From Escherichia coli (GTDB lineage Bacteria > Pseudomonadota > Gammaproteobacteria > Enterobacterales > Enterobacteriaceae), in assembly GCF_003991155.1 (NCBI RefSeq), contig NZ_CP031294.1: 64,000 bases of DNA. One strand, written 5' to 3'. The notes under the pieces are model-generated. The model was not told the DNA's origin. It did no database searches and worked only from the letters and a program-made list of their open reading frames with translations. A program made the translations under genes and the position numbers. Position 1 is the stretch's first letter. The number at the start of each line of letters is the position of its first letter. Shown here one piece after another: positions 8,650 through 25,823 of this stretch.

Positions 8650-8650
8650 A

Positions 8651-9124: not shown

Positions 9125-9555
9125 ATATTCGCCCCTACTTCAAGATGCCCAGGTCTTCCTCGTAGCCCCCAGCGGCGATGAACACTGGACACCTTTAATT
9201 TTTGACCTTCAAGGATCAGCACATCATCAAGTTGTACAGCCGCTTCTAAAGGGACAACTAACACAGCATCAAACAGCTCCAGACTCGCCTTACCACGACT
9301 ACCAGAGCTATCAGCACGAACTGACGATTTCTCATTACTCTGTTCGAACTTAACCACGCCGACATTCGTCTTCCTGACGAATTGTAATTGCGCCTCGCCG
9401 TAAACGTTCTTTGCGCCAAAGCGGTAGATCGCAATTTCTGTTTGCCACGAAATATTCATGCTCTCTCTCTGTTGTTGTCGGTCGCTCTCATTACTGGCCA
9501 AAAACCCTTTCGACCAAAAGTAAATAATGCGACTGGCGTTACGCACGGCGAACAA
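9115..9555 (-). CDS. hypothetical head-tail joining protein
   Basis: 146-aa ORF, 10-bp overlap with downstream gene; structural operon context. Confidence 0.4.
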   Translation of the reverse strand: MFAVRNASRIIYFWSKGFLASNESDRQQQRESMNISWQTEIAIYRFGAKNVYGEAQLQFVRKTNVGVVKFEQSNEKSSVRADSSGSRGKASLELFDAVLVVPLEAAVQLDDVLILEGQKLKVSSVHRRWGLRGRPGHLEVGANIWV

Positions 9556-10372
9556 TCATACGGTTGTTGATGTAACTGACCAGCAAGCGCCAGGTACTGC
9601 GAGCCACATGAACGTTTGCAGCTTTACCGGTACGGTACATGTTGGTTGTTTCACCGATTGACTCTGACAAAATGCCATCCTCTCGTGCTGCGGCAACATC
9701 ATTGCCATTTGCGATCTCACACGCTTCGTTGACAACGGCAAGCATCAACGCTTCTTTGAAGTAGTCAGGGAACTCTTCAAACTTCTCCTGCGTCATCTTT
9801 TCCCAATCGACTAAATCATGCCGGTACGCTCCATCTGCTCCCCACGGAATGTCATACACATTCAGCATATTTTGAGGGCGATCGTATCGGTCAAAGTCGA
9901 TACGTAGAATTTTGCGGATTGAGAACGGTAAAGTTTTAATTCGTCTGGTAGCCTCAATGAGACGCTTGCGCATTAAGCCTTCACCATCCGACAGCAAAGT
10001 GTCCCCATTCAGCATATCGATCGCCTGCATTTGAGCATCAGCGACAGTTGCAAACGACTGTTCTGGTATCGACAGTTCAAAACTATTCAGCAGAACATAC
10101 ATTTGCCGCTCTTCATGCGTCAGACCCGATGCAACAGCCTTCACAATGACGTACCGCAGATCGCGTTCTTTCTCAGAGAGCTGGTTATATTCAGCCGACA
10201 CGACAACCGGAATCGACATTTGACCGCTGGTAATTTCTAGCGGCTCGCCATCAACGAGAATAGCCCCGGTGCTGTCCTTTACTGTGTAGGTAGCAGATTC
10301 GATATCCAGCACGTTGAAGGCAAATGAAAGGGAAACAGCTTCACCGCTACGATACGAGTCGATCTGCGCCAT
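9539..10372 (-). CDS. hypothetical structural protein
   Basis: 277-aa ORF between decoration-like gene and head-tail genes. Confidence 0.4.
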   Translation of the reverse strand: MAQIDSYRSGEAVSLSFAFNVLDIESATYTVKDSTGAILVDGEPLEITSGQMSIPVVVSAEYNQLSEKERDLRYVIVKAVASGLTHEERQMYVLLNSFELSIPEQSFATVADAQMQAIDMLNGDTLLSDGEGLMRKRLIEATRRIKTLPFSIRKILRIDFDRYDRPQNMLNVYDIPWGADGAYRHDLVDWEKMTQEKFEEFPDYFKEALMLAVVNEACEIANGNDVAAAREDGILSESIGETTNMYRTGKAANVHVARSTWRLLVSYINNRMIVRRA

Positions 10373-10806
10373 TACTCACCGCCTTGTGCTTTCAGGATGC
10401 CTTCAATCATCTCGACAATTCCTTTCGCTTTGACACCAACCTGATTACCAATCACACGTAGACCGGCAATGCCTTCATTGTCTGCAATTGACTCCAACTC
10501 TTCTCGTGTGAAAGTCTGGATCTGTTTGGCCGGTTCATCTGGTGTCCCACGTTTCATTGGCACAATGTCAGGTGCTGCTGGCTCGGTAATCAGGTCTGCG
10601 GTCAACTCGCCACGATCACTGTATGCGGCAGACGGAGAAACATTTTTGCCCTCGACTGTTGATGCTCGCATTGAGGCACAAATCCTTTGCTGATCGATAA
10701 AAGGCAACTCCGCTACGGACACCCCGTTCTCGAACTGAACGCCGCACAACATTCCCGAATAACCGGAAAATTGCGGTTCTAATAAAACAATTTTTGCTGG
10801 TTTCAT
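10372..10806 (-). CDS. hypothetical structural protein
   Basis: 144-aa ORF; 1-bp overlap (coupled) with downstream gene. Confidence 0.4.
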   Translation of the reverse strand: MKPAKIVLLEPQFSGYSGMLCGVQFENGVSVAELPFIDQQRICASMRASTVEGKNVSPSAAYSDRGELTADLITEPAAPDIVPMKRGTPDEPAKQIQTFTREELESIADNEGIAGLRVIGNQVGVKAKGIVEMIEGILKAQGGE

Positions 10807-10850
10807 AACGCATTCTCTCTACATGGGCGGCTTTCGCCGCCCAATATTGA

Positions 10851-11771
10851 TTATTCCTGTGCAGCAGTGACTTCTACGGTCGCTGTCGCTTTGTGGCTAC
10901 CATCTTGGGTAGTAACCTCGATTGTGGCAGTACCAGCCGCAACGCCAGTTACAACACCGGTTTCGCTATCCACCGTTGCAAACTCGGTATTTTTGGATTC
11001 CCAAGTAACGGTTTTATTTGTTGCTCCTGCCGGCTCGACATTTGCGGTCAGCTGAACAGTTTTGTTTGCCTCAACGGTTGTGCTATTTGGGTCGATTTCG
11101 ACGCCGGTAACAGCCACAACAGGCGCAGTTACTTCCACCGTTGCAGTTCCCTTTTTGCTGCCATCTTGGGAAACGATCTCAATCGTCGCAGTGCCAACTT
11201 CTACACCAGTAACGTTCCCGCTCTGGTCTACCGTTGCCTTGTCTTCATTTTTGGAAGACCAAGTAACTGCCTTATTCGTCGCATTTGACGGCTGAACATT
11301 CGCTTTCAGACTGACTGATTTCCCTTTCTCAACAGAGGTTGAGTCTGGCGTTACCGTTACGGATTGAACGGCTACCGGATTTACGGTGACTTCCACTGAC
11401 GCGGAAAGCTGGGTTTCCTGATCAGTTGCGGTAATTTTCACTTTGCCTGGTGCTACGCCAGTTACTAATCCAGTGCCGTTGACGGTTGCAATTTGATCAT
11501 TGGCTGACTTCCAGGTGAATGAACTGGCACTCTTACCCATAGTAATACCTGCACTAAGTTGAACAGTTTTCCCAACCAAAACTGACGGTGAAGCCGGGGT
11601 TATGTTTACGGATTGGGAGAAGGGAACCGCCTGCAAACAAGCAGATAGCTGACTTTGTTGTCGCTCGGTTAAAGGTTCATCGGAGATAGAATTGGTAAAT
11701 CCGGCACGGCACATATGCCCCGTAAAATCCGAAAATGCCTCTTCCGTAATCTTCATCTTTTGTTCTGGCAT
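10851..11771 (-). CDS. Ig-like (three Big_2 repeats) protein, capsid decoration candidate
   Basis: Three tandem ~80-aa repeats with TV...G.V.G...G.ATI..T.DG motif typical of Big_2 domains; directly downstream of capsid gene. Confidence 0.55.
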   Translation of the reverse strand: MPEQKMKITEEAFSDFTGHMCRAGFTNSISDEPLTERQQSQLSACLQAVPFSQSVNITPASPSVLVGKTVQLSAGITMGKSASSFTWKSANDQIATVNGTGLVTGVAPGKVKITATDQETQLSASVEVTVNPVAVQSVTVTPDSTSVEKGKSVSLKANVQPSNATNKAVTWSSKNEDKATVDQSGNVTGVEVGTATIEIVSQDGSKKGTATVEVTAPVVAVTGVEIDPNSTTVEANKTVQLTANVEPAGATNKTVTWESKNTEFATVDSETGVVTGVAAGTATIEVTTQDGSHKATATVEVTAAQE

Positions 11772-11844
11772 TTCTCGCTCCTACAAAAAGGGTGGGCGTA
11801 TAGCCCACCCTTTAACATAGATAATTACTTATCTACTTCACTGA

Positions 11845-12720
11845 TTAAATTTTTACATTGGTCAGTGCAGCGATAGCCTTATCGTGCTTATTCGCCAGAG
11901 AGCAGTACCACTTCACACGGGTACGTACTGCGTCTTTGTTCTGTACAGTACCAATGTTTTCAACAACGATACCTGCGTTGTCGCCGCCATACAGACCAGT
12001 AACGCCGTTCTCTTCTGACAGATGCAGGCAGTAGATGCTTGCTTTGCCAGAATCGGTCGGGATGAAGTCGTTGATGATGAACGGAACGCCGTTATGACAC
12101 AGCATCGGACGACCGAAGTTCTCCATCATGATTTCAGACGGACCTACGTTTACTGTACGCAGCAGCGCACGGTAAGCACGCAGGTGCTCTGAACGCATCA
12201 TGATGCAGTCAGCACCAAGATCTTTCACCGCATCGACCAGTTCGTCGAACATAGAGAAAGTCATAGATGCACCGGCGATATCGATCTTCTGATCTGCGTG
12301 CATCAGGCGTGGAATGCCGTCAAACGCCTTGTTGTTGGAGCTGGAGTCACCCAAAATCAGGTTGCGACGGAACGCACGAGCCAGACCTTTAACTTTCTGA
12401 CGAACCTGAATAGCCAACTGGTTGTTGGTGTCGGCCATAGTGGTCGCCAGGAATTTATCAACGTCTACGTCACCAGCCAGAATACGCAGTTTCGCAACGC
12501 ATTCTTCGAAGGTTGCTGCACCTTCAGGGATGGTGTCGTTAACGTCGATGAAGGTAGCTTCACTCAGCGTTTTTTCACGGTTGTACAGATATGCCTTTGA
12601 ATTAATTTTCATAAAAGGCAGGATGGCAAACAGGTCATCGCGATCGATGATAGTTTCGATCACACCCTGTTCAAGTTCGTTGTTAGACAGCTTTTCAGCT
12701 TCTTCACGCAGTAATGGCAT
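11845..12720 (-). CDS. major capsid protein (candidate)
   Basis: 291-aa ORF immediately after scaffold-like gene and portal; followed by a hairpin terminator at ~11786-11812. Confidence 0.55.
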   Translation of the reverse strand: MPLLREEAEKLSNNELEQGVIETIIDRDDLFAILPFMKINSKAYLYNREKTLSEATFIDVNDTIPEGAATFEECVAKLRILAGDVDVDKFLATTMADTNNQLAIQVRQKVKGLARAFRRNLILGDSSSNNKAFDGIPRLMHADQKIDIAGASMTFSMFDELVDAVKDLGADCIMMRSEHLRAYRALLRTVNVGPSEIMMENFGRPMLCHNGVPFIINDFIPTDSGKASIYCLHLSEENGVTGLYGGDNAGIVVENIGTVQNKDAVRTRVKWYCSLANKHDKAIAALTNVKI

Positions 12721-12745
12721 CTATCAATTCCCTTTGATTTAGATG

Positions 12746-13633
12746 TTACTTAAGTCCAATTTTCCCCAGACCGGAGGCCAACTTATCCATAGTCGACTTG
12801 TTCTTCGGTTGGGATATTGTGTAGGTCGATTTGGAATGTGAGCCTACACCCTGCTTGGCTTCGCTACGCATCAATGCGTCAGCTTCCGGATCTGCCCGCA
12901 CAATGCGTTCAATCGCGGATTCAAACGGCAACGGCTTACCTTCACCGTCAACCAGAACAGCTCGTTCTTTGTGACCTGCCGGTTTGTCATAACCCACTAC
13001 GCTACCGTCTTCACCCACTTCAAAATGAGAACCGTAGATCACGCGGGCTTTTGCCGGGGTCATCAGAACTTTGTCACGTAGGAAGAGAGAGTTACTGAAG
13101 GAAGCGCCCACGGTCATCTCGACTAATTGAGATTTCAGTGATGCGTTTTCACTTTCCAGTGCTGCATAACGTTCGTCACGCTGTGCCAGCTCTGCCTGGT
13201 GTGCTTCGATCATCTGTTTTTTAACAGCATCGAACTCACCACGACGCTCCAGTTCAGCTTGCTCCGCCTCACGACGTGCGTTTTCTGCGGCCTGTTCAGC
13301 TTCTAAAAGCTGGCGAGCACGAGCCGGATCGATATCACCGTACTGAGCAAGCTGATCGGCCAATGTGCGCTCTTTCTCTTTGCGCTTCATGTTCTCCTTC
13401 AGCAGTTCAGCACCAGCTTTCTTGGTTTTACGAAGTTCGGCCAGTAACTCTTCCTGAGTCATGCCAGCGTATTCGTCATCGCCCTTCGGCTGCTCTTTTT
13501 GTTCACCCTGTTTGTCAGGATCTTGTGTACTCTGCTCATTATCAGCAGCTACACCGCCAGCGCCTCCACGCTCATGCGCTTCAGCGACATCCATCAGACC
13601 ACGACGGGCCAAAAGCATTTGCCACAGATTCAT
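12746..13633 (-). CDS. scaffolding protein (candidate)
   Basis: 295 aa, highly charged coiled-coil (EAEQAAENARREAEQAELERR...), between portal and capsid genes. Confidence 0.55.
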   Translation of the reverse strand: MNLWQMLLARRGLMDVAEAHERGGAGGVAADNEQSTQDPDKQGEQKEQPKGDDEYAGMTQEELLAELRKTKKAGAELLKENMKRKEKERTLADQLAQYGDIDPARARQLLEAEQAAENARREAEQAELERRGEFDAVKKQMIEAHQAELAQRDERYAALESENASLKSQLVEMTVGASFSNSLFLRDKVLMTPAKARVIYGSHFEVGEDGSVVGYDKPAGHKERAVLVDGEGKPLPFESAIERIVRADPEADALMRSEAKQGVGSHSKSTYTISQPKNKSTMDKLASGLGKIGLK

Positions 13634-13654
13634 AAAAATTCCTTTTGTTACTTA

Positions 13655-15229
13655 TCACTCGTTCTCTTGAGTAGATGAGTCCCCATTCCCTCGGGGTTGA
13701 TCTTGCCCGCTTTCTTGGGCTGCACCACGATCATAAGTAAGTACTGACTTATTTTCAAGGGTATTTAGATCATTTTTTGGAGGAAAATTCAAGAGATCTT
13801 TATCAAATTCCTTTTTCATCGCCTCAGTAATGTTCGGGAAAATCTTCTCAATAAGCATTTCCATCTGGTGACGACGTACAGAGTCCGGTGCCTGAAGTAA
13901 TGACAGTTTCTCGGCAACAGAAAATTCATCAGTAAGGCCACGAATATCGAAACTTTCTGGATATGCAATTAAAGAGTGGTCTTCGTCCAGATCTACCCCC
14001 ATCCATTTCGCAACCAGTAGCATGATTTGGCGTTCAGCCCTTTCCAGACGCTCTGCTTTTGTGACAAGCAAGCTATTTACACGCTGGAAGTCATACATTT
14101 TTGCGGCACCAGATGAATTATCGATTCCCTGTGCGTTGTCCTGCTTCGTTCGCTCACCAGCTACACCAACTGAATGGTAGATTTCGTTAATCACCGTCTT
14201 AATCGTAGTGATGATCATCTGAGCTTGTTTCGGGTCTGGTGACAGATAAAACGGCTGGTTTCCACCTTCAGAATCGTAGGTGAAGACTCGCTTTGTGCCC
14301 ATTTCAAGCACTTTAGTGTGGTTTTCATCACCAGGTAAAAGCGACTGTACCGGTATAGCCAACTGGCTAAATGTCTGATCCTGAATAATGGCATCAAGGT
14401 TTGACAGATAGTTTGCAACCGCACGATCAAGATAAGCGATATCATCGATCAACGATGGGCTGAAATACGGTGATTCACTTTCTCCAATACAATCAACAGG
14501 AAACACAGGAACTACGCCGAGATTATGCTCACCGCTATCCTCTAAAATAACTTTTGCCTGACGGCGACCTGCTCCACCAGCGCCCTTCTTCACTTCCTCA
14601 CGGAACAGATACCACTCGTTTTGTGTCCACAGACGATAACGTTGGTATTCCTGACCTGTAGAAGTAAAAGGATCTGCGTCATCACGAGCGACTTCCACAA
14701 TTAACGCCCACAACATATTCCCGTCGTCGTCCCATGCCACATCCAGCATTTGCTGAGGTGAAATCCAGTAGGCGTAGGCGCGAGCATCTTTCTTTTTCTC
14801 GTCAGCTACTGACTCAACATCACCACTCATCGTGCTATCGACAACAACCCATATGCGACCGTAAATAGACGACTGCAAATCAATAGCGGCCATAAATGAG
14901 TCAATAGAGGCATTCTGGCGAGTCGCACGTTTCCAGAAATTGCGGATCTGCTCTGGTGCCTCTTCGATATTTCTATGAATGTCTTCTTTAAAGAGATATT
15001 TGTTGATGAGGTTTACCACCTCACGAGTGTGGTTGAAGCGATAAGCACGTTCAACTCGCTCCTTAAACTCCTGATCTCCCTCTTTAAAGTAACGAAAGAT
15101 ATTGTCTGTAAACCAACCACGCCCGCCAGCGTAAGTGCTGGCGAGGAAGTCCCAATGTTCTTTTTTCTTTTCGTATTCCGGGTGGCGTCGCGCCACCAGA
15201 TCCTTAATTTGTTTGTCGTTCAATTCCAT
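13655..15229 (-). CDS. portal protein
   Basis: 524-aa ORF directly downstream of large terminase; size and acidic C-terminus typical of portal proteins. Confidence 0.7.
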   Translation of the reverse strand: MELNDKQIKDLVARRHPEYEKKKEHWDFLASTYAGGRGWFTDNIFRYFKEGDQEFKERVERAYRFNHTREVVNLINKYLFKEDIHRNIEEAPEQIRNFWKRATRQNASIDSFMAAIDLQSSIYGRIWVVVDSTMSGDVESVADEKKKDARAYAYWISPQQMLDVAWDDDGNMLWALIVEVARDDADPFTSTGQEYQRYRLWTQNEWYLFREEVKKGAGGAGRRQAKVILEDSGEHNLGVVPVFPVDCIGESESPYFSPSLIDDIAYLDRAVANYLSNLDAIIQDQTFSQLAIPVQSLLPGDENHTKVLEMGTKRVFTYDSEGGNQPFYLSPDPKQAQMIITTIKTVINEIYHSVGVAGERTKQDNAQGIDNSSGAAKMYDFQRVNSLLVTKAERLERAERQIMLLVAKWMGVDLDEDHSLIAYPESFDIRGLTDEFSVAEKLSLLQAPDSVRRHQMEMLIEKIFPNITEAMKKEFDKDLLNFPPKNDLNTLENKSVLTYDRGAAQESGQDQPRGNGDSSTQENE

Positions 15230-15255
15230 TTGAATAACCTTAGATAATTACTTAC

Positions 15256-16512
15256 CTATCGAGAACCACCAAGAATAACACGGTTTTTGACTGGATACCT
15301 ACGATGTACTGGATAGCCCAATGCGTCTGCACTATGCTCAATGCCACCTGTCTTATCCATATCTCGTGTTCCAGGCTTGTAGATGACTTTTTCCAGTGAA
15401 TCAATCAAATGCTTGCACTTCGGATCGATATACAGCCGGATATCTCCAGATGCGGTCATCAGCATTCGGTTAACAGCATTAACACGATCCGCAATTGGCG
15501 GGTGCTTTTTCGAATAATCGACACGTAAGAATCCCTTCTCTTTGAATATGTCGACGTCAGACTCCCCGCGAGCATGTTGGCGATAAGCACCTGCCGGATC
15601 TGGAAATACCGTTATCTGTGATTTCCAGCGCCAGAAGCGTCTCTCAAGCTCATCACAAACCTCTGCCGTGTTAGAGGAAAAGAGCACCAATTCATCAATT
15701 GCCCATAGCTCACCATTTGGCTGAGGTTGCAAAATTACTGAAGACATCGGGTCAATGTTGAAGTCCTGCCCTACCCATATAGGCAACCGAGGGTTGAACT
15801 GAAGCGGTTTTACATGCACGTTACGATCGAACGGGTAGTAAACGCGCCCGGACATGTTCTCAAAGCTCGCCAGGTACTCCTGAGCGAACGATTTCGGGTC
15901 CATATCGTTCTTAGCAGCTTCAATTTCCGCCGTAGGTACAAACGGAGAATCGGCAGTTACAAACTGCCAGCTCTTCCACTGTCCCTTTCTTTGCAGCTCT
16001 ACGTTCTGGCCTATAGTCCACAGTTTGTGAAATTCCGAGAAGCCTTTTGGCGTACCAATGATCAGTGCACCGCCGCGTGTCGATGAAAGAGTAGGTCGTA
16101 ACACCTTGTACCAGGTGTCAGCCTTCATATCCTGAAATTCATCAAGCACTACAAAATGCAACGCTACGCCGCGCAGAGTGTCAGGCTTATCAGCACCTTT
16201 GAGGGCGATCTCCGAACCGTTCTTCAACACGATTGTCATCGTGGTGTCGTTCTTTTTCCTAACCCACTTACGAGGCAGAACTTCCTGTAGATCGTCCCAC
16301 AAAATCTGGCGAGCCATCTGGTAAGTAGGAGCGACATACCAGACTCTTTGCTTTTTTTCCTTTGCCGCCGCACGAATAATAGTGGAGATCGACAACCGGG
16401 ATTTTCCCCAGCGTCGACCAGCACAAACAACTTTAAATCGATGCGGAGACTGGAAGACTTTCATCTGTCCAGAATGCAGTTGCACAAGACTGAGCGAGGA
16501 CGGGATTGCCAT
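15256..16512 (-). CDS. terminase large subunit
   Basis: Walker A CAGRRWGKS, Walker B VVLDEF, C-terminal nuclease-like domain; 418 aa. Confidence 0.9.
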   Translation of the reverse strand: MAIPSSLSLVQLHSGQMKVFQSPHRFKVVCAGRRWGKSRLSISTIIRAAAKEKKQRVWYVAPTYQMARQILWDDLQEVLPRKWVRKKNDTTMTIVLKNGSEIALKGADKPDTLRGVALHFVVLDEFQDMKADTWYKVLRPTLSSTRGGALIIGTPKGFSEFHKLWTIGQNVELQRKGQWKSWQFVTADSPFVPTAEIEAAKNDMDPKSFAQEYLASFENMSGRVYYPFDRNVHVKPLQFNPRLPIWVGQDFNIDPMSSVILQPQPNGELWAIDELVLFSSNTAEVCDELERRFWRWKSQITVFPDPAGAYRQHARGESDVDIFKEKGFLRVDYSKKHPPIADRVNAVNRMLMTASGDIRLYIDPKCKHLIDSLEKVIYKPGTRDMDKTGGIEHSADALGYPVHRRYPVKNRVILGGSR

Positions 16513-17144
16513 TATTCGTCCTCCCCTTCACTTCCATCATCTGTCGCATCAAATTCGCTTAGAGCTTCTTCTTCCAACGTCTCAAGCAATTCGTCATCGA
16601 TGATTTCAGGCTCGTCGTCTTCCTGACGTAATTTCGCCACCTGGGAAGGCGTAAGCTCACCAAATACCAGGTTCGGAATTTCTTCCTCGTCATTTTCCGC
16701 ATGATCCATGCCCAATGCTTTGGACGAAACTTCAAAGCATTTTGCAAGGGTATTACTGGCTCTCTGTAAGCTCTTGAGAGAATCCTCAATCGCCCCTAAA
16801 GGCTTACCCTCACGTTTGGCCGTAGTGACTTCGACCATCACCATCTGCCCCAACGCATACGCCCAGCCGTCATAACGTGTACGACGTTCTTCTATCTTTT
16901 CCGCACGGGCTTTAGCGCGAAGCTCTGCGTCAGATTTAAGAGACTCACGAACCATCTTCCCAACAGAGTCCGCGCCTTTCTCTAATCCTCGCTTTTTGAA
17001 ATGTCTGGAGAGTGTTTCACGACGAATGCCGTACTCTTCCTCCAGCTTTGAGAGTGTATATTCGCCTGACGTCCATTTGGCTTCAGCTTCGGCCCACTCC
17101 GCTGGTGTCAGGCGAGTTTTTACCTCGTCTTTTTCGACCGTCAT
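16512..17144 (-). CDS. terminase small subunit (candidate)
   Basis: 210 aa, N-terminal HTH-like region, acidic C-terminus, 1-bp overlap with TerL start. Confidence 0.6.
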   Translation of the reverse strand: MTVEKDEVKTRLTPAEWAEAEAKWTSGEYTLSKLEEEYGIRRETLSRHFKKRGLEKGADSVGKMVRESLKSDAELRAKARAEKIEERRTRYDGWAYALGQMVMVEVTTAKREGKPLGAIEDSLKSLQRASNTLAKCFEVSSKALGMDHAENDEEEIPNLVFGELTPSQVAKLRQEDDEPEIIDDELLETLEEEALSEFDATDDGSEGEDE

Positions 17145-19866: not shown

Positions 19867-20531
19867 ACCAGAGCCTCACCAGCGTTCTCCATTTCATTAC
19901 CGGTGTTAATAGCCTGCTCTTTGATGATGTTTTTTATGGTTTCTGCAACACGATCTGACGCATCGAAAGTTACTTTGAAGCGCATGGTCTGATGTTCCGC
20001 ACCCACACGTTCGGTTTTCTCTCGTTTGTCGGTATCGACAGGCTCATCACTACCACGAGACAACGCCTCCAGTGCTTCAAGGTCGATTGCCGCCTCTTTT
20101 GCTAAAACCATCGAGATTTCGTCGTCATACGGAGCGATTTCAGACAGTTGATAGTCAAGTTCTGACTGAATTTCTTCAATGAAGCGTTGCAATGCGATTT
20201 GGTCGTCTTCACCGTATCGCTCGTTGTCCACCAGTGACATCTGTTTAGCTACGACATCGCTAATTTTGCCCACAGAAAGCACCGGAACCGTTGAAATTCC
20301 TTGCTCAATAGCAGCACGCCAGCGATGTTCGCCGCCGAGGATTTCAAAAAATCCATCTTCAAGTTCACGAGCCAAAATTGGCTTAAAAAAGCCCAATTTT
20401 TCGATAGAACCTTTCAGTTTTTCAAAATTCTGCGCACCAACCGAATTGGTGTTCCAGGTATTCGGGCGAAGGTTGGCAACATCAACCTGCAAAATCGTGA
20501 TTTTTACATCCATTTTATTGCTACAATCCAC
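19833..20531 (-). CDS. ParB-like nuclease domain protein
   Basis: N-terminal ParB-type motif LGGEHRWRAA. Confidence 0.55.
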   Translation of the reverse strand: MDCSNKMDVKITILQVDVANLRPNTWNTNSVGAQNFEKLKGSIEKLGFFKPILARELEDGFFEILGGEHRWRAAIEQGISTVPVLSVGKISDVVAKQMSLVDNERYGEDDQIALQRFIEEIQSELDYQLSEIAPYDDEISMVLAKEAAIDLEALEALSRGSDEPVDTDKREKTERVGAEHQTMRFKVTFDASDRVAETIKNIIKEQAINTGNEMENAGEALVWLVDYYKERM

Positions 20532-20595
20532 TAAGTAATCACTTACTTATTATAATAGCCAAATAACATACAAAAGGCACTAAGGAAAGAGGTTT

Positions 20596-22155
20596 ATGAC
20601 TGTTCGGATTGTATCTAACGCAGTAAATGCGCTTATTTCTGGCGCAGATGACAAGGTAAAGCAACTGGTGCAGCAAATGTTGAGCTACGAAGTCGAGACT
20701 GGCGACTGGAAGGGCACAAGCACGATGTTCAACTGGAGTAAAAACTCGTTCCCTGCTGGCTTTGCCAAGCCTGTAGCGGCGAACTTGAACAAGGCGGGCA
20801 TCAAATGTGTTCATATCCGCAAAGACAAAGCCCCGGCGCTTGGTAAACCAAATCCTGCGGTTAACCCATTCCCATACAATCCTGATTATGCGTATCAGGA
20901 TCAGACTGTGGAAACACTGGTTCGAGAGGGAATGATGATTGCGCAGATCGCTACTGGTGGCGGGAAATCTAACGTTGCCTGCAAAGCAGCTGCACGTATC
21001 GGTCGAATGACATTATTTTTAACAACCCGCTCTGTTCTGATGTTTCAAATGGCCGAAAACTTCCAGAGATCCATCGACTACCGCGCCGAAAATGGCGAAC
21101 CGTGGTTAAAAGACCAAAAGGTTGGAGTCATTGGCTCGGGTGAGTTCCAGGTATCACGACATATCAACGTCGCTACAGTTCAAACTCTTGCAAGTTTCCT
21201 CGAAGAACCACCACGCGATGCAACACCAGATAAGAAAAGCTACCACCTCAAACGTCGGGAGTTGGTGAAACGCTTCCTTTCAAGTGTCTCTCTTCTTATT
21301 CTGGAAGAGGCGCATGAGTCTTCAGGCTCAAATTTCTATGACATCGCCAGATTATGTGTGAACGCAGACTATCGTCTGGCGCTTACAGCCACGCCGTTCA
21401 TGAAGGATTCGACGGAAGCCAACATGCGCCTGATGGCGGTGGCCGGGCGAATTGAAATTAAAGTCACAGAAAAGTACCTGATTGATCGAGGCATTCTGGC
21501 AAAGCCGTACTTCCTTTATCATAAAGTTGCCTACAAGCCAGACGAGGCCAGAATCAAGGCCGAACTTGCCAACAAACACCTCAATTTTAGAGTTGGTATG
21601 AGCACCGCCTACCAAAAGGCTTATCAGTTGGGGATCGTGTATAATTTGGGACGTAACGAGGCCATAGTGCGCGAGGCATTGCTTTATAAGCAACATTCAC
21701 TCAACTGCATGACTCTGGTTCGTCTTAAACGCCACGGGCAAATCCTGATGGAGATGATGAAGGAGTCAGGTCTTAAAGTTGATTTCATCTATGGGGAATC
21801 TAACCAGACGACAAGGCAAGCAAAGCTGAATAGTTTAGCGTCTGGTGAAATAGATGTTTTAATAGGCTCGACTATTCTGGATGTTGGTGTTGATGTGCCA
21901 AGCGTTGGTGCGGTCATTCTTGCTGGTGGTGGGAAAGCAGAAGTTGAAATGAGACAGCGTGTCGGTCGTGGCTTACGAGCCAAAAAAAATCAGGCAAACG
22001 TGTGTTTTATCACCGATTTCATTGACATTAGCAACAAATACCTGTTGTCTCACTCTTATGAGCGAAAACACATCATCGACACCACACCTGGCTTTGCAGA
22101 AGGTGTATTGCCTATTGATGGAGCATTCGATTTTGGAGTTCTGAAACGAGATTAG
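20596..22155 (+). CDS. SF2 DNA/RNA helicase
   Basis: Walker A ATGGGKS, motif II LEEAH, motif III TATP, motif VI QRVGRGLR. Confidence 0.8.
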   Translation: MTVRIVSNAVNALISGADDKVKQLVQQMLSYEVETGDWKGTSTMFNWSKNSFPAGFAKPVAANLNKAGIKCVHIRKDKAPALGKPNPAVNPFPYNPDYAYQDQTVETLVREGMMIAQIATGGGKSNVACKAAARIGRMTLFLTTRSVLMFQMAENFQRSIDYRAENGEPWLKDQKVGVIGSGEFQVSRHINVATVQTLASFLEEPPRDATPDKKSYHLKRRELVKRFLSSVSLLILEEAHESSGSNFYDIARLCVNADYRLALTATPFMKDSTEANMRLMAVAGRIEIKVTEKYLIDRGILAKPYFLYHKVAYKPDEARIKAELANKHLNFRVGMSTAYQKAYQLGIVYNLGRNEAIVREALLYKQHSLNCMTLVRLKRHGQILMEMMKESGLKVDFIYGESNQTTRQAKLNSLASGEIDVLIGSTILDVGVDVPSVGAVILAGGGKAEVEMRQRVGRGLRAKKNQANVCFITDFIDISNKYLLSHSYERKHIIDTTPGFAEGVLPIDGAFDFGVLKRD

Positions 22156-22157
22156 TT

Positions 22158-22436
22158 ATGAGTGAAAAGAAAACAACTTACTGTCAGGTAGCATTGTCTG
22201 ATAAGGCCAATGACAAACTTGGAAAGTTTCAAGTGAAACTAAAAGAAAAAAATATCAAAATGTCTAAGGCTGAAGTCATAAATACCATTCTGGAACAATT
22301 GACAATGGCCGACTTTGACAAGGTTATATCTTCTGTCGGGGCTTCCGCTAAGACTCGTGAGAAAATCATGCGTATCTATGAGAACTCTAATATGACAAAG
22401 GAAGATCTCAAAACGCTATTAAGCAGATTAAAATAA
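22158..22436 (+). CDS. small hypothetical protein
   Basis: 92-aa lysine-rich ORF, 3 bp after helicase stop. Confidence 0.4.
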   Translation: MSEKKTTYCQVALSDKANDKLGKFQVKLKEKNIKMSKAEVINTILEQLTMADFDKVISSVGASAKTREKIMRIYENSNMTKEDLKTLLSRLK

Positions 22437-22462
22437 TCACGCTATCAATTAGGGAGACAAAG

Positions 22463-22927
22463 ATGAAGTCTCCCATACTGTTCACTTTCTGTTCTAAAAC
22501 TATCATGAAATACTCGCTTCTCCCTCTACTAACGTTACCAGTGTTGATGCTTGCCGCGTGCCAATCACACCCAATATCAATCCATGACGCCAAACCAGCA
22601 CCGCAGGCCAAAGTGTTCAAGTATCAAAGCGCAGCGCCAGCTACGTTGGTGGTAATGAGAGACACAGGTTTTGTAGGAGCTGGATGTGATGCTTCCATTT
22701 TCATCAACGGCGAAACTGTCGCAAAACTGGCTACAGGCGAAAAAGCGACTTTCCATTTAAATGCCGGAGAATTAATTGTGGGTGCATCTCTTGAAGGTGC
22801 AGGTTTATGTGCTCTAAACCCCGCTCGTCAAGAGCGAGAAACGACTCTGAAGAATGGAGACACAAAAGCGTTCAGGGTGTTTACCAGCAATTCTGGTGAC
22901 ATCGACATTCTGCCAACAACTCTGTGA
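22463..22927 (+). CDS. lipoprotein (predicted)
   Basis: GGGAGA RBS; signal peptide ending in lipobox LAAC; 154 aa. Confidence 0.55.
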   Translation: MKSPILFTFCSKTIMKYSLLPLLTLPVLMLAACQSHPISIHDAKPAPQAKVFKYQSAAPATLVVMRDTGFVGAGCDASIFINGETVAKLATGEKATFHLNAGELIVGASLEGAGLCALNPARQERETTLKNGDTKAFRVFTSNSGDIDILPTTL

Positions 22928-22931
22928 TGAC

Positions 22932-23456
22932 ATGACAACCAAAGATATTACCTACGGTATCCAAGCTGAACTCTGGCCGCGAGATTACACTAACGTTGAA
23001 AAACTACTGATGTTCTGGCGCAGAGAACAAATTCCTGTAAGGGTCACTCTCGAAGATGGCCAGGCGTTTTGCATGTACGTTTATGGCCTCATGCCATCTC
23101 GTAACAAAGTTGACCTTTGCCCAGCCCCTTTTGACAAAGAAAATCGTATAAGGCTCCCACTTGAACGCATTAGTACAATTGAATCAGGTGTGGTTGACAG
23201 TATCGCTCACGATTTCAAAGGTCGACTAACAGTTCACCCTGATTATGTCGATAATCGGCCATCACGCCGCGATTTTTTTGCAATTTGCAACCAAGCCTAC
23301 AAAGCAAACAAATCTATAAGGGTGTACATGGCGGATGGCCGTGAAATTGAGGGGGTGTCAGCAGGCGCAGATGCTTGTCAGGTTACACTACGTGTCGAGA
23401 ACGGTAGAAAAATAGTTGTTTTGTTCGATTGGGTTGAACGAATTTTGCCTTTTTGA
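22932..23456 (+). CDS. hypothetical protein
   Basis: Start placed at ATG 22932 (MTTKDITYG), same frame as ORF 22854..23456 but after lipoprotein stop. Confidence 0.4.
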   Translation: MTTKDITYGIQAELWPRDYTNVEKLLMFWRREQIPVRVTLEDGQAFCMYVYGLMPSRNKVDLCPAPFDKENRIRLPLERISTIESGVVDSIAHDFKGRLTVHPDYVDNRPSRRDFFAICNQAYKANKSIRVYMADGREIEGVSAGADACQVTLRVENGRKIVVLFDWVERILPF

Positions 23457-23459
23457 GTT

Positions 23460-23768
23460 ATGAAATCGATATTGTTACCACCATTATTTTTACTTTGCTC
23501 AGTTGCGGCAAATGCAATGGACTATAAGCCTGTCATTCAGTCGCTGATGAATGACGTGTGCTCAACGTCTCAGAATGTATCAGTTTGCATGTATCAATTT
23601 TCGGCAGCCGTAAAAGCAGGAAAAGCGATAGGCGAGAATGTGGAACTGTGTAAGAAAGTGGCAAATGAAGAACGGGCAATGTTGGATTGCGAATCTAGCG
23701 AGTCATCGGCACAGTTCGTTGATGCGCTATTTGACACCAATCGTAAGGCTGTAGAGTCTGTTCAATAA
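23460..23768 (+). CDS. secreted small protein (signal peptide)
   Basis: N-terminus MKSILLPPLFLLCSVAANA is a Sec signal; 102 aa. Confidence 0.5.
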   Translation: MKSILLPPLFLLCSVAANAMDYKPVIQSLMNDVCSTSQNVSVCMYQFSAAVKAGKAIGENVELCKKVANEERAMLDCESSESSAQFVDALFDTNRKAVESVQ

Positions 23769-23945
23769 ATCTATAAGGTTAATAACCGGCTAAGTCCGGT
23801 TATTATTTTTCACATCACTTCTTTATATCTACAAATCAAATAACCTAAATATATATAAGGTCTAAAGCCGCAATCAATTATTTATTTAGGGAACACCTTC
23901 GACGATCTCGCTTTTATTTCTAGGACTTTCATCCCTGCAAAAAAT

Positions 23946-23995
23946 TTAAAAAAAAACACTTGCAATCTTTTTTCGCATATCGATAATTGAACTCG
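23946..23995 (+). promoter_or_regulatory. strong sigma70-type promoter with A-tract UP element
   Basis: aaaaaatttaaaaaaaaacac TTGCAA-16 bp-GATAAT; ~55 bp upstream of ATG at 24053. Confidence 0.6.
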
Positions 23996-24052
23996 TCGAA
24001 AGCGAAGACGCTAACGACAATAAATTTTAAATTTACATAAGGAAAAATTATC

Positions 24053-24703
24053 ATGGCTAACATTATCATTTCTAAAAAATCCATCATTGAAGCTGCTTCC
24101 ATTGTATCCGATGAACTGCGCGAAAAAGCAGATCTGGCAACTCAAACATATAACGAACATTATAAAAATGGTACGCACACTAAAGCAGACAAAGCAAATA
24201 TGCAAGCTGCGACCACTAAACTTGCTTACTTCATCAACAACGTCGTAAACGCAGTAGAAGACGAAAAATTATGCTCTGTTTTCTACTATGCGATTAAAGC
24301 AAGCAAACAAGCGCCAGAAGTATTTTTCCGTGATGCAATGACTAATAGTTATTCTCTGGAAAAACTGGTTTATCTGGTTAAATCAATTAAATCTGGTAAA
24401 TGCGTTTATTCCATCGCTGATATGTCTGGATCTCGTGTATTCGCTTTAATCGATATGATTAACGACGAGATCGACACGTTCACTAATGGCGCTGTTTTCG
24501 ATTTAATGAATGAAGCTAAAAAAGCGTGTGAAATTAAATTGGACGCTGGTTATACTCAAGCCAACCAGTTGATCAATCTTTGCGAACGTCTTGGACTTGT
24601 TGAAAAAGTCAAAGGAGCTGGGAGCGCGAAAGCTGGTACTCAGCAATATCGCTTCATTAAAAATGATTTCTACAATTATTTAGCTGATGCTTTCAAAGCG
24701 TAA
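24053..24703 (+). CDS. hypothetical protein, probably highly expressed
   Basis: 216 aa, optimal-codon bias (ctg, cgc, ggt, gct, atc), strong promoter upstream, hairpin terminator just downstream. Confidence 0.55.
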   Translation: MANIIISKKSIIEAASIVSDELREKADLATQTYNEHYKNGTHTKADKANMQAATTKLAYFINNVVNAVEDEKLCSVFYYAIKASKQAPEVFFRDAMTNSYSLEKLVYLVKSIKSGKCVYSIADMSGSRVFALIDMINDEIDTFTNGAVFDLMNEAKKACEIKLDAGYTQANQLINLCERLGLVEKVKGAGSAKAGTQQYRFIKNDFYNYLADAFKA

Positions 24704-24751
24704 TTAATGGAATCAAGCGCCCACTATGGGCGCTTTAAAGGAGCTTTGAAA

Positions 24752-24955
24752 ATGGTCAGCTATGACAAGATCCGCGCGGAATATCGCGCAAAGTATCGCG
24801 CTTATAAACTAGAATTAATCGATGATTTAATCGCGCAACGCGACCAATTAAATTTTACGTTTTCTGATTTGCTTAACAGCAAGCGAGATTGCAAGCGCAA
24901 ACGTGAATACTTACGTTTAAGCGCATTAATCGGAAAACTTCAAAATTCTATTTAA
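24752..24955 (+). CDS. small basic hypothetical protein
   Basis: Start moved to ATG 24752 with AAGGAG RBS; ORF-track start 24707 overlaps a terminator hairpin. Confidence 0.4.
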   Translation: MVSYDKIRAEYRAKYRAYKLELIDDLIAQRDQLNFTFSDLLNSKRDCKRKREYLRLSALIGKLQNSI

Positions 24956-24975
24956 TTTTTTTAAGGAGCTTAATC

Positions 24976-25206
24976 ATGTTTGTTCTTATCGCTGGCGTTA
25001 ACGTCCATAACGAATATTATGTTAATCGCATCGCTGGGATCGCTGGTTACGCTGGGCGCGCAGTCGAGTTTATCGATGAAACAACGCGTAAAATTGATTT
25101 ATTGAGCGACCAGGAGCGAAAAAAAGCAGACGTGAACGACGCTGATATATTTTTAATGTTAAAAGCGTTTGTAGAAATGGGATTTAAAATCAGTTTACAC
25201 AAATAA
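24976..25206 (+). CDS. small hypothetical protein
   Basis: 76 aa, AAGGAG RBS. Confidence 0.45.
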   Translation: MFVLIAGVNVHNEYYVNRIAGIAGYAGRAVEFIDETTRKIDLLSDQERKKADVNDADIFLMLKAFVEMGFKISLHK

Positions 25207-25212
25207 AATCGA

Positions 25213-25240
25213 GCGCCCACTATGGGCGCTTTTTTCGTTT
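25213..25240 (+). terminator. rho-independent terminator
   Basis: gcgcccactatgggcgc hairpin followed by tttttt. Confidence 0.75.
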
Positions 25241-25257
25241 CCAATACTTCCACAATA

Positions 25258-25285
25258 ACGCGCCATTGATGGCGCGTTTTTTATT
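25258..25285 (+). terminator. rho-independent terminator (second of tandem pair)
   Basis: cgcgccattgatggcgcg hairpin followed by ttttttatt. Confidence 0.75.
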
Positions 25286-25823
25286 GTCTTTAACTCACTC
25301 CAACAACATAAAAATAAGCGCCAAAATAACGCCATAAACGCGCTTTTATATCCTTACCAGTACATACCCATTACTTAACACATTAACGCGCTTAAAACGC
25401 GTTATATTGCGCTATAGCGTATGGTTAATCATTGGCTTTTAGTCTTGCTATGTGATCCGCGTTTATTTGTCGGCGCGGATCGGCATTTTGTTTTGTTCCG
25501 TATCCGCTCGCGTATTATGTGCGCGTGATTTTTCACATAATCACACCACTTAATCACGTATGTGATTATGCTACGAAAGAAATCTGGATGTCTCAGGCGA
25601 CGAAAGTCATCATAATTTTCCCCGCTCGCCTGTCCGACAACCGCTGGTTGGATTCCACCAGCTTCCCGATGTTTTTTTCTACATAAAGGCGAATGCAGCC
25701 GTTTCCCGAAAAAATCCTGGCCGTTTCCCGTCGGCTCATGAATACGTTCCTCGCCGTTTCTGAAAATTTCCCTGCGGCAGCTGGTGGCTATAGAGAAAGG
25801 GCCGTTTCTGGCCCTCTTCTCAG

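What the first reader, a model, noticed from the sequence alone, without database searches (positions are those of the whole stretch)
22463..23768. Lipoprotein and secreted-protein genes downstream of the helicase: superinfection-exclusion candidates
Phage-encoded lipoproteins (T5 Llp, phi80 Cor) block the phage's own receptor. Here a lipobox protein and a signal-peptide protein are encoded outside the structural and lysis context.
Basis: inference. Interest (0 to 1): 0.4.

Follow-up and report, generated by a model that had tools for sequence, protein, structure and literature searches.

The report
Swappable envelope-protein genes on a phage-plasmid
The two exported proteins are exchangeable cargo that plausibly protects the carrier cell from phages, but they are unrelated to the known receptor-blocking lipoproteins and their function is untested.

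Summary
The window is an SSU5/pHCM2-type phage-plasmid of E. coli. The finding's coordinates match ORF boundaries exactly, but they hold three translationally coupled + strand genes, not two.

- **Lipoprotein (22463/22505..22927):** lipobox LAAC, phrog_890, modelled as a beta-sandwich with a conserved Cys pair.
- **FljA-family gene (22932..23456):** full-length match to Pfam Flag1_repress (1.5e-84). It is core to the whole phage-plasmid group.
- **Periplasmic protein (23460..23768):** 102 aa, signal peptide ending ANA|M, four Cys, helical.

A terminator follows at 23780..23805.

The two exported proteins are accessory. In 93 related loci, the positions beside the conserved FljA-like gene hold at least five unrelated exported-protein families. 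In a close relative (phage Cyrano in E. coli LF82), this region is transcribed in lysogens about as strongly as the repressor. Lipoprotein relatives sit in moron positions of temperate phages.

Evidence against an Llp/Cor-type blocker of the phage's own receptor:
- The mature domain has no homology to Llp or Cor.
- SSU5 has a real cor gene beside its tail fibres.
- Elements with 99.8% identical J proteins carry different proteins in this slot.

Verdict: plausible but unproven phage-exclusion or lysogenic-conversion cargo, of modest interest.

The parts
20596..22155 (+). DEAD/DEAH-box (UvsW-like) helicase, first gene of the operon
   Evidence: ORF. RefSeq and Cyrano annotations. Only generic SF2 helicase matches in PADLOC.
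22158..22436 (+). Conserved 92-aa protein of unknown function (phrog_1466). It marks the upstream border of the variable slot.
   Evidence: phrog_1466 at 1.4e-45. Its Cyrano orthologue CYRAN_117 is 12-fold above background in LF82 lysogens.
22463..22927 (+). Outer-membrane lipoprotein precursor. The ORF starts at 22463; the conserved start is at 22505, giving 140 aa. Lipobox LAAC lies at 22550..22561. The mature part is about 121 aa.
   Evidence: phrog_890 'lipoprotein' at 8.8e-52. Homologues are mostly 140 aa. A profile search found 1432 cluster representatives of about 140 aa. AlphaFold model pLDDT 92, eight-strand sandwich. Lipobox-like motif in all 65 (63 by regex, 2 by eye); among the 63 regex-scored, +2 is never Asp and 61 have two more Cys.
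22932..23456 (+). FljA-family (phase-1 flagellin repressor type) RNA-binding regulator, 174 aa. This is the conserved centre of the slot.
   Evidence: Pfam PF03614 at 1.5e-84 over profile positions 1-170 of 170; phrog_1444 at 1.9e-100. 35% identical over full length to an fljA next to a flagellin gene. Found in 834 PLSDB records. dN/dS 0.08-0.15.
23460..23768 (+). Small periplasmic protein precursor, 102 aa. Signal peptide residues 1-19 (nt 23460..23516), cleavage at ANA|M. The mature part is 83 aa with four Cys.
   Evidence: phrog_9536 at 5.8e-55 over residues 20-102. Only 12 close homologues, all on SSU5-type elements. A paralogous 99-aa family exists. AlphaFold pLDDT 71, three helices. Only generic helical-hairpin fold matches.
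23780..23812 (+). Intrinsic-terminator-like hairpin with a T-run, closing the operon
   Evidence: Ten-pair stem TAATAACCGG/CCGGTTATTA followed by TTTTT.

Best explanation
**Shown.** The interval is the distal end of the helicase operon of an SSU5/pHCM2-type phage-plasmid. It holds three translationally coupled genes:
- an outer-membrane lipoprotein of the phrog_890 family, modelled as a beta-sandwich with two conserved non-lipid Cys;
- a core FljA-family regulator;
- a small periplasmic helical protein with four Cys.

The lipoprotein and the periplasmic protein are exchangeable cargo. In related elements, the positions beside the conserved FljA-like gene are occupied by at least five unrelated families of exported proteins.

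**Inferred from a relative's RNA-seq.** The cassette is expressed while the element resides as a plasmid prophage.

**Inferred, untested.** The exported proteins change the envelope of the carrier cell. The most likely pay-off is protection against incoming phages. They would act from the periplasmic side of the outer membrane, for example on an outer-membrane or periplasmic component needed for adsorption or DNA entry. This would be a general or heterotypic exclusion function. It would not be a plug matched to the element's own receptor-binding protein.
For: **Identity of the element.** 100% identity to plasmid NZ_OW849379.1 and 98.9% to Escherichia phage CMS-2020a.

**Gene anatomy and export signals.**

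**Operon structure.**
- Gaps of 2-4 nt between stop and start codons.
- One terminator after the last gene.

**Accessory nature.**
- The FljA-like gene is in 834 PLSDB records, the lipoprotein in 420 and the periplasmic protein in 258.
- 13 plasmid or phage loci and 80 IMG/VR loci show A-family lipoproteins (some at only 27% identity and inverted), a 266-aa lipoprotein, an SP196/197/213 family, an SP118 protein or a membrane protein in the slot.
- 77 of the 80 IMG/VR loci have at least one exported-protein gene there.

**Lysogen expression in Cyrano.**
- log2 values are 7-9.9 for the helicase, the small gene, the slot lipoprotein and the FljA-like gene.
- Structural and lysis genes are at 2.5-5; the putative repressor is at 6.4-10.4.

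**Family context in temperate phages.**
- Between tail genes K and I in mEp390, CharmingMan, phiAH14a, vB_Pae_CF53a and two metagenomic prophages.
- Directly behind a cI-like repressor in Vibrio phage Her.
- Next to PF14373 Imm_superinfect in one locus.

**Selection.** dN is 0.14-0.36 with saturated dS, indicating purifying selection.

**Experimental precedent.**
- Lipoproteins encoded in tail modules have been shown to exclude phages in the mEpimmI group (PMC11893012).
- Curing a Klebsiella SSU5-like plasmid raised plating of three lytic phages 10-100-fold (PMC8969562).
Against: - No member of either protein family has been tested.
- No PADLOC match and no similarity to Llp or Cor beyond the signal peptide.
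- The lipoprotein family also occurs in apparently non-phage chromosomal settings. Its ancestral role may therefore have nothing to do with phages.
- The Klebsiella curing phenotype also lowered electroporation efficiency. That points to an intracellular defence rather than an envelope block, and the responsible gene is unknown.
- Lysogen expression is shown only for a relative whose slot holds a different lipoprotein.
- No separate promoter was detected for the cassette.
Confidence: 0.4

Rival explanations
1. The lipoprotein, perhaps with the periplasmic protein, is an Llp/Cor-type exclusion factor. It binds and inactivates the receptor used by this phage-plasmid's own virions, protecting lysogens and newly released progeny.
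For: - It is an outer-membrane lipoprotein expressed from an early or maintenance operon.
- Relatives sit inside tail modules, next to the J gene, in lambdoid phages.
- The window's element lacks the Cor gene that SSU5 and pEC881_2 carry, so another gene could fill that role.
Against: - No homology to Llp or Cor in the mature domain.
- The gene lies about 23 kb from the J and fibre genes.
- SSU5 has both this lipoprotein and Cor.
- Elements with 97.9-99.8% identical J proteins (C-terminal 300 aa 99.7-100% identical) carry unrelated slot proteins. pEC881_2 has a ~97% identical fibre tip yet carries an unrelated slot protein; APEC, whose fibre tip is also ~97% identical, carries a divergent (59% identical) member of the same lipoprotein family.
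- The SSU5 receptor is LPS core, not a protein.
Confidence: 0.12
2. The two exported proteins are lysogenic-conversion cargo with a benefit unrelated to phages. Examples would be envelope stress tolerance, serum or bile resistance, or host colonisation, in the manner of lambda Bor or Lom.
For: - The lipoprotein family is large (1432 cluster representatives) and also occurs in housekeeping-like chromosomal neighbourhoods.
- The slot lipoprotein and the FljA-like gene of Cyrano are more strongly expressed in cell-culture medium and inside macrophages than in LB.
- The cassette is kept on pMT1 of Y. pestis and pHCM2 of S. Typhi.
- The carbohydrate-binding-module-like fold is compatible with binding envelope glycans.
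Against: - No similarity to Bor/Iss, Lom/Ail or any virulence family.
- The turnover of unrelated exported proteins in one slot is more typical of arms-race genes.
- Phage-borne members sit in tail modules or behind repressors.
Confidence: 0.25
3. The exported proteins work together with the FljA-like regulator as one module, by analogy with fljB-fljA. The regulator would silence a host or phage mRNA for a surface component while its operon partners supply or guard an alternative.
For: - Translational coupling of all three genes.
- An exported-protein gene lies beside the FljA-like gene in 77 of 80 IMG/VR loci, despite complete family turnover.
- The periplasmic protein or its paralogue is always directly downstream of the FljA-like gene.
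- The FljA-like gene is strongly conserved (dN/dS about 0.1) even in non-motile Klebsiella and Y. pestis, so its target is probably not only flagellin.
Against: - The neighbours belong to unrelated families and are sometimes on the opposite strand or on the other side of the regulator. This argues for a permissive insertion site rather than a functional unit.
- Two complete loci and one truncated locus have no slot gene at all.
- No fliC-leader-like sequence is present in the window.
- No experimental data exist.
Confidence: 0.1
4. The genes are neutral or decaying hitch-hikers with no current function.
For: They are absent from many related elements without obvious consequence.
Against: - Intact ORFs with conserved export signals and Cys pattern across hosts.
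- dN of 0.14-0.22 with saturated synonymous sites.
- Transcription of the region in lysogens.
Confidence: 0.05

Closest known systems
T5 Llp (lytic conversion lipoprotein, blocks FhuA)
   Same: A phage-encoded outer-membrane lipoprotein made early. It may work like Llp in the broad sense of changing the envelope to keep phages out.
   Different: - Llp is about 60 aa when mature, is encoded next to the receptor-binding protein gene and co-varies with it.
- Here the mature protein is about 121 aa with a different fold.
- Only the signal peptide aligns (E = 0.28 to 8a60_B).
- The gene is about 23 kb from J and the fibre and does not co-vary with J.
Cor (phi80, N15, HK022; SSU5_025)
   Same: A prophage lipoprotein proposed or shown to exclude phages. 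The SSU5 group itself uses this family.
   Different: - Cor is about 60 aa when mature and sits after the tail-fibre genes.
- The profile comparison aligns only 24 signal-peptide columns.
- SSU5 has Cor as well as this lipoprotein.
- The window's element has no Cor.
mEpimmI Lpp021 / Lpp010 exclusion lipoproteins (PMC11893012)
   Same: Short lipoproteins in exchangeable sequence types inside temperate coliphages. They have been shown experimentally to exclude phages that use OmpA or LamB.
   Different: - Not detectably homologous: no mEp021-type phage appeared in the tblastn search.
- They are located in the structural gene cluster, not in a replication operon.
Lambda-type morons (bor, lom)
   Same: Accessory envelope proteins expressed from a prophage, variably present among relatives, and followed by a terminator.
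   Different: - No sequence similarity.
- No promoter of its own was detected.
- The genes are translationally coupled within the helicase operon.
Salmonella FljA (fljBA operon), for the middle gene
   Same: Full-length member of Pfam PF03614, 35% identical to a plasmid fljA that follows a flagellin gene. Like fljA, it is the downstream partner of a gene for an exported protein.
   Different: - No flagellin gene is nearby.
- It is conserved on elements of non-motile hosts.
- Its target is unknown.
TssJ and other transthyretin-like lipoproteins (structural resemblance only)
   Different: No sequence similarity and no type VI secretion genes. The similarity is at the level of a common fold.

Membership tests
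Bacterial lipoprotein (Lgt/LspA/Lnt pathway) | Signal peptide ending in a lipobox [LVI][ASTVI][GAS]C with an invariant Cys | tested here: met
   MKYSLLPLLTLPVLMLAAC. The Cys is invariant and a lipobox-like motif is present in all 65 aligned relatives (63 by regular expression, 2 by eye).
Bacterial lipoprotein (Lgt/LspA/Lnt pathway) | The +2 residue is not Asp, so Lol sorts the protein to the outer membrane (E. coli rule, established knowledge) | tested here: met
   +2 is Gln here. In 63 relatives it is Ala, Ser, Gln, Phe, Gly, Met or Thr, never Asp.
Bacterial lipoprotein (Lgt/LspA/Lnt pathway) | Actual lipidation and membrane localisation | not testable with these tools
   Needs globomycin or palmitate labelling and membrane fractionation.
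PHROG 890 ('lipoprotein') | Significant full-length match to the family profile | tested here: met
   E = 8.8e-52 over profile positions 6-136 of 136.
Pfam DUF2846 (PF11008) | Score at or above the gathering threshold (34.3 bits) | tested here: not met
   17.8-18.1 bits. Only 14 of 65 relatives match at E <= 0.01.
T5 Llp | Sequence similarity of the mature domain | tested here: not met
T5 Llp | Gene adjacent to, and co-varying with, the receptor-binding protein gene | tested here: not met
   J and the fibre lie about 23-32 kb away. J is 97.9-99.8% identical in elements with unrelated slot proteins.
Cor | Sequence similarity to Cor proteins | tested here: not met
   hhalign against SSU5 Cor aligns only 24 signal-peptide columns, probability 40%. 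tblastn with Cor finds nothing in the window.
Cor | Location directly after the tail-fibre genes | tested here: not met
   SSU5_025 lies there in SSU5. The equivalent gap in the window's element is empty.
Llp / Cor (function) | Blocks adsorption or DNA entry of the cognate phage | not testable with these tools
   Needs adsorption and plating assays.
FljA / Pfam Flag1_repress (middle gene) | Full-length match above the gathering threshold | tested here: met
   282.4 bits against a 24-bit cut-off, profile positions 1-170 of 170. 35% identity to an annotated fljA, E = 2e-34.
FljA / Pfam Flag1_repress (middle gene) | Encoded downstream of an alternative flagellin gene (fljB-fljA arrangement) | tested here: not met
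   The upstream gene is a lipoprotein. There is no flagellin gene in the region.
FljA / Pfam Flag1_repress (middle gene) | Binds the fliC mRNA leader and blocks its translation | tested here: inconclusive
   No fliC-leader-like sequence on the element: the best matches are 12-mers with E about 0.5. Action on host fliC cannot be tested here.
Sec-dependent secreted protein (signal peptidase I) for the third gene | Positively charged n-region, hydrophobic core and a small-x-small cleavage motif | tested here: met
   MKSILLPPLFLLCSVAANA|M. The same layout occurs in all 9 aligned homologues. This was judged by inspection; no dedicated predictor was available.
Pfam PF26829 (ValRS_modifier) for the third gene | Match to the family profile | tested here: inconclusive
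   Only the 99-aa paralogue carries a precomputed 'weak' hit. The model is not in the local Pfam copy. The window protein has no hit on record.
Moron (Hendrix definition) | Variably present between otherwise closely related phages | tested here: met
Moron (Hendrix definition) | Own promoter and terminator (an independent transcription unit) | tested here: inconclusive
   A terminator is present at 23780..23805. No + strand promoter-like site lies between 22100 and 22500. The genes are translationally coupled to their neighbours.
Moron (Hendrix definition) | Expressed from the repressed prophage | tested here: inconclusive
   Shown for the orthologous region of Cyrano, which has a different slot lipoprotein. 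Not shown for this element.

The most novel reading that the evidence does not exclude
SSU5-type phage-plasmids carry a conserved FljA-family post-transcriptional repressor that is permanently paired with a swap-slot for exported proteins. The unit would be a surface-remodelling switch. The regulator would silence a host mRNA for an envelope or flagellar component (possibly a phage receptor). Its translationally coupled partners would install or guard an alternative. That would be a new, regulator-plus-effector form of superinfection exclusion, active even in non-motile hosts.
Probability: 0.1. Interest if true: 0.7.

Novelty: new member of a known kind. Interest (0 to 1): 0.35.

Why it matters
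SSU5/pHCM2/pMT1-type phage-plasmids are common in clinical E. coli, Klebsiella, Salmonella Typhi and Y. pestis. Their accessory content is barely characterised.

If the slot proteins exclude phages, they would affect phage-therapy host ranges. They would also add an uncharacterised lipoprotein family (phrog_890, more than 1400 sequence clusters, recurrent in temperate phages of Escherichia, Pseudomonas, Vibrio and Ralstonia) to the known exclusion repertoire.

The overlooked FljA-like gene is conserved even in non-motile hosts. It is a cheap, directly testable lead on how these elements talk to their hosts.

If the proteins do nothing to phages, the locus is ordinary lysogenic-conversion cargo.

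Tried and rejected
- **Known exclusion or defence families.**
  - PADLOC, Pfam, NCBIfam and PDB sequence searches gave nothing for either exported protein.
  - Homology to Llp and Cor was rejected.
- **Fold searches.**
  - The lipoprotein matched only generic transthyretin-like sandwiches and weak viral matches.
  - The periplasmic protein matched only generic helical hairpins such as small Tim proteins.
  - The afdb50 library was not available.
- **Strict pairing of the periplasmic protein with A-family lipoproteins.** It looked true in 13 loci (4 of 6 against 0 of 7). In 80 IMG/VR loci it turned out to be only a tendency (26 of 41 against 4 of 32), and this is not corrected for relatedness.
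- **fliC mRNA leader-like target on the element.** The search found only chance 12-mers.
- **Wider context sampling of the lipoprotein family.**
  - Four further look-ups hit short contigs.
  - The share of phage-borne versus chromosomal members therefore remains unknown.
- **Composition.** It gave no sign of foreign origin.
- **Rfam.** Nothing above threshold in 20000..25500.
- **Literature.** Searches found no functional work on these genes or on the FljA-like gene of phage-plasmids.
Full report
**What the window is.** The region 20500..24800 is 100% identical to E. coli plasmid NZ_OW849379.1 and 98.9% identical to Escherichia phage CMS-2020a. It is related to phage Cyrano (94%) and Salmonella phage SSU5 (79%). 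It is therefore an SSU5/pHCM2/pMT1-type phage-plasmid. The structural genes lie on the minus strand at about 200..17000. Two ParB-like genes and an ABC-type ATPase gene follow. A divergent + strand operon starts with a DEAD-box helicase at 20596..22155.

**Checking the observation.** The finding's coordinates are exactly the outer limits of two ORFs.

The first ORF, 22463..22927, encodes 154 aa.
- Most homologues are 140 aa and begin at the Met encoded at 22505.
- A good Shine-Dalgarno sequence precedes 22463 and none precedes 22505. The 14-residue extension is not conserved.
- Both starts give the same mature protein, because cleavage is before Cys19 of the lipobox L-A-A-C (nt 22550..22561).
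- In a 65-sequence alignment reaching 27-30% identity, the lipid Cys is invariant. All 65 members have a lipobox-like motif (63 by regular expression, 2 by eye).
- Among the 63 scored by regex, the +2 residue is never Asp and 61 have exactly two more Cys.
- By the E. coli sorting rule, this predicts an outer-membrane lipoprotein in an oxidising compartment.

The last ORF, 23460..23768, encodes 102 aa.
- It begins MKSILLPPLFLLCSVAANA|MDYK, and this layout is kept in all nine aligned homologues. Three of its four Cys are invariant; the fourth is lost in one of the nine.
- RefSeq starts it at a TTG at 23472, which cuts off the n-region.

Both features are real and far beyond chance.

**What was missed.** Between the two genes lies a third gene, 22932..23456 (174 aa).
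- It matches the whole Pfam profile Flag1_repress (FljA), positions 1-170 of 170, at 282 bits against a 24-bit cut-off. It also matches phrog_1444 at 1.9e-100.
- It is 35% identical over its full length to an fljA gene that follows a flagellin gene on a Salmonella linear plasmid.
- The three genes are separated by 4 and 3 nt (stop 22925-27 then ATG 22932; stop 23454-56 then ATG 23460). A ten-pair hairpin with a T-run follows at 23780..23805.
- No + strand promoter-like site was found just upstream of the lipoprotein gene.
- The simplest reading is one operon: helicase, a 92-aa protein (phrog_1466), lipoprotein, FljA-like, periplasmic protein, terminator.

**The lipoprotein.**
- It matches phrog_890 ('lipoprotein', 8.8e-52). 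It matches Pfam DUF2846 only weakly (18 bits against a cut-off of 34.3).
- Close relatives are confined to phage-plasmids of about 110 kb. A profile search of 1.8 billion cluster representatives found 1432 proteins at E <= 0.001, almost all about 140 aa.
- With that alignment, AlphaFold gives a confident model (pLDDT 92) of an eight-strand beta-sandwich.
- The fold therefore does not name a function.

**Where relatives of the lipoprotein sit.** tblastn against 50,697 phage records gives 60 hits. Those whose context I examined are temperate or prophage-derived, infecting Vibrio anguillarum, Pseudomonas and E. coli; I did not check the lifestyle of the remaining records, including the Salmonella and Ralstonia hits.
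- In mEp390, CharmingMan, phiAH14a, vB_Pae_CF53a and two metagenomic prophages, the gene is inserted between the lambda-type tail genes K and I. In HK639 it follows the tape-measure gene.
- In one of these loci it lies beside a PF14373 superinfection-immunity gene.
- In Vibrio phage Her it lies directly behind the cI-like repressor on the same strand.
- These are classic moron positions.
- At least one member lies among housekeeping-like genes of a Pseudomonas-type chromosome. I could not measure what fraction is phage-borne.

**The periplasmic protein.**
- It matches only phrog_9536 (unknown function). It has 12 close homologues, all on SSU5-type elements.
- A profile search adds one paralogous 99-aa family, which occupies the same position in other phage-plasmids. 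That family carries a precomputed weak hit to PF26829 (ValRS_modifier), which I could not verify.
- The AlphaFold model is moderate (pLDDT 71) and shows three helices. Cys34/Cys43 and Cys64/Cys77 flank the two inter-helix turns.

**The slot.**
- By tblastn against PLSDB, the FljA-like gene occurs in 834 plasmid records. These include 345 from Klebsiella and 62 from Y. pestis, both non-motile. The lipoprotein occurs in 420 records and the periplasmic protein in 258.
- I compared the interval between the conserved 92-aa gene and the conserved 216-aa gene in 13 plasmid or phage loci and 80 IMG/VR loci.
- The FljA-like gene is always there. Around it are:
  - A-family lipoproteins, including a 59% identical form and a 27% identical, inverted form in Klebsiella (hhalign probability 99.7%);
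  - an unrelated 266-aa lipoprotein, as in Cyrano;
  - a family of signal-peptide proteins of about 196-213 aa;
  - a 118-aa signal-peptide protein;
  - a membrane protein;
  - two families of cytoplasmic proteins.
- 77 of the 80 IMG/VR loci have at least one exported-protein gene beside the FljA-like gene.
- The periplasmic protein or its paralogue, when present, is always directly downstream of the FljA-like gene.
- It is more frequent with A-family lipoproteins (26 of 41 against 4 of 32), but the pairing is not strict and the counts are not corrected for relatedness.
- Between this element and SSU5 or pHCM2, synonymous sites are saturated in the lipoprotein, the periplasmic protein and the 92-aa gene. 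The FljA-like and 216-aa genes have dS of about 1-1.5 and dN/dS of about 0.1.
- This fits exchange of old alleles under purifying selection.

**Expression.** There are no data for this element. For Cyrano in E. coli LF82, the flanks are about 94-99% identical and the J protein is 99.8% identical. The RNA-seq table of PMC9928086 gives these log2 values:
- helicase: 5.0-8.4;
- 92-aa gene: 6.3-9.9;
- slot lipoprotein: 4.7-9.4;
- FljA-like gene: 4.2-8.1;
- most structural and lysis genes: about 2.5-5;
- putative repressor: 6.4-10.4.

The region is therefore on in lysogens of a close relative.

**Testing the Llp/Cor reading.**
1. The family profile matches T5 Llp (8a60_B) only over the signal peptide (E = 0.28). 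It aligns with SSU5 Cor over only 24 signal-peptide columns.
2. SSU5 has an annotated Cor gene (SSU5_025) in the canonical place after its tail-fibre genes, in addition to the lipoprotein studied here. pEC881_2 has an unannotated Cor homologue. The window's element has none.
3. On the full plasmid, J and the side fibre lie 23-32 kb from the slot.
4. The J protein of this element is 99.8% identical to Cyrano's, 99.7% to that of an APEC plasmid and 97.9% to that of pEC881_2. The C-terminal 300 residues are 99.7-100% identical. Yet Cyrano and pEC881_2 carry slot proteins of unrelated families, and the APEC plasmid carries a divergent (59% identical) member of the same family.
5. The fibre tip of this element is 97% identical to those of pEC881_2 and the APEC plasmid, yet pEC881_2's slot protein is unrelated to this element's and the APEC plasmid's is a divergent member of the same family.
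6. The only receptor known in the group is LPS core oligosaccharide, for SSU5.

A plug matched to the phage's own receptor is therefore unlikely, though four comparisons cannot exclude it.

**What it most likely does.**
- Shown: two exported proteins encoded as exchangeable, selectively maintained cargo at the end of an operon. The operon is active in the plasmid-prophage state of a relative.
- Inferred: they act in the envelope of the carrier cell.
- I rate general or heterotypic phage exclusion from the periplasmic side of the outer membrane as the single most likely function (about 0.4). The reasons are the turnover of unrelated exported proteins in one slot, the moron positions of relatives, and experimental precedents:
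  - tail-module lipoproteins of mEpimmI phages exclude OmpA- or LamB-dependent phages (PMC11893012);
  - curing an SSU5-like plasmid from K. pneumoniae raised plating of three lytic phages 10-100-fold (PMC8969562).
- The curing result also affected electroporation, so it may reflect an intracellular defence encoded elsewhere on the plasmid.
- Rivals:
  - lysogenic conversion unrelated to phages (0.25);
  - a functional unit with the FljA-like regulator (0.1);
  - no function (0.05).

**Comparison with what is known, and novelty.**
- The proteins are already in databases as hypothetical proteins, and the lipoprotein family is catalogued as phrog_890. Neither protein has a tested function.
- They fail the membership tests for Llp, Cor and DUF2846. 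They pass those for lipoprotein, Sec-secreted protein and, in part, moron.
- I file the finding as a new member of a known kind: prophage accessory envelope proteins.
- Two things seem not to have been described in the papers I could search:
  - the conserved FljA-family gene at the centre of a swap-slot for exported proteins;
  - its conservation in non-motile hosts.
- That is the most interesting lead here, and it was not part of the original finding.

**Verdict.** Interest is 0.35.

Noticed in passing
window 22932..23456: A full-length FljA-family (phase-1 flagellin repressor) gene is core to SSU5-type phage-plasmids. It is present in 834 PLSDB records, including non-motile Klebsiella and Y. 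pestis pMT1. It has dN/dS of about 0.1 and no flagellin gene nearby. Its target is unknown, and I found no paper discussing it.
   Followed up: partly
window 22158..22436: A conserved 92-aa protein (phrog_1466) lies directly after the helicase. Its Cyrano orthologue CYRAN_117 is among the most transcribed phage-plasmid genes in LF82 lysogens (12-fold above background). Its function is unknown.
   Followed up: partly
window 42861..43759 (minus strand), next to 39092..42208: Two genes are 27-30% identical to SSU5_024 ('membrane associated protein') and SSU5_023 ('outer membrane protein'). In SSU5 these sit between the tail-fibre adhesin and Cor. Here the pair lies beside an HsdR-like type I restriction subunit, far from the tail genes.
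   Followed up: no
L036 14231..14464 (SSU5); L034 5396..5608 minus strand (pEC881_2): SSU5 carries an annotated Cor exclusion gene right after its tail-fibre genes. pEC881_2 has an unannotated homologue (59% identity). The window's element has an empty gap at that position.
   Followed up: yes
L015 2899..3336 (minus strand); L114-L119: In Klebsiella phage-plasmids the same lipoprotein family occupies the slot at only 27% identity and in inverted orientation. In five IMG/VR loci it lies downstream instead of upstream of the FljA-like gene.
   Followed up: yes
L002 3970..4569, L019 2073..2612, L020 2438..3052, L021 2968..3492, L023 2874..3422: Two families of cytoplasmic proteins of unknown function (about 180-200 aa each) also come and go in the slot. 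They have no Pfam or PADLOC match.
   Followed up: no
L003 3940..3965; L016/L017 just after the 92-aa gene: SSU5, pMT1 and pHCM2 have a GC-rich hairpin between the 92-aa gene and the lipoprotein gene. The window lacks it and instead has a Shine-Dalgarno sequence plus an upstream ATG at 22463. Read-through into the cassette may therefore differ between elements.
   Followed up: no
window 23460..23768 and homologous positions in PLSDB records: The periplasmic-protein gene is started at TTG 23472 in RefSeq, which truncates the signal peptide. It is left unannotated in many Klebsiella and Salmonella plasmid records that encode it.
   Followed up: partly
window 22463..23768 compared with L003, L015, L017: Synonymous sites are saturated in the lipoprotein, periplasmic-protein and 92-aa genes. 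They are not saturated in the FljA-like and 216-aa genes of the same element pairs. This suggests cassette exchange of old alleles.
   Followed up: partly
window 25219..25285 (minus strand): A weak Rfam match to the Hfq-regulated sRNA Hrs1 (25.7 bits against a gathering score of 56.4, E = 0.08). It is probably chance.
   Followed up: no
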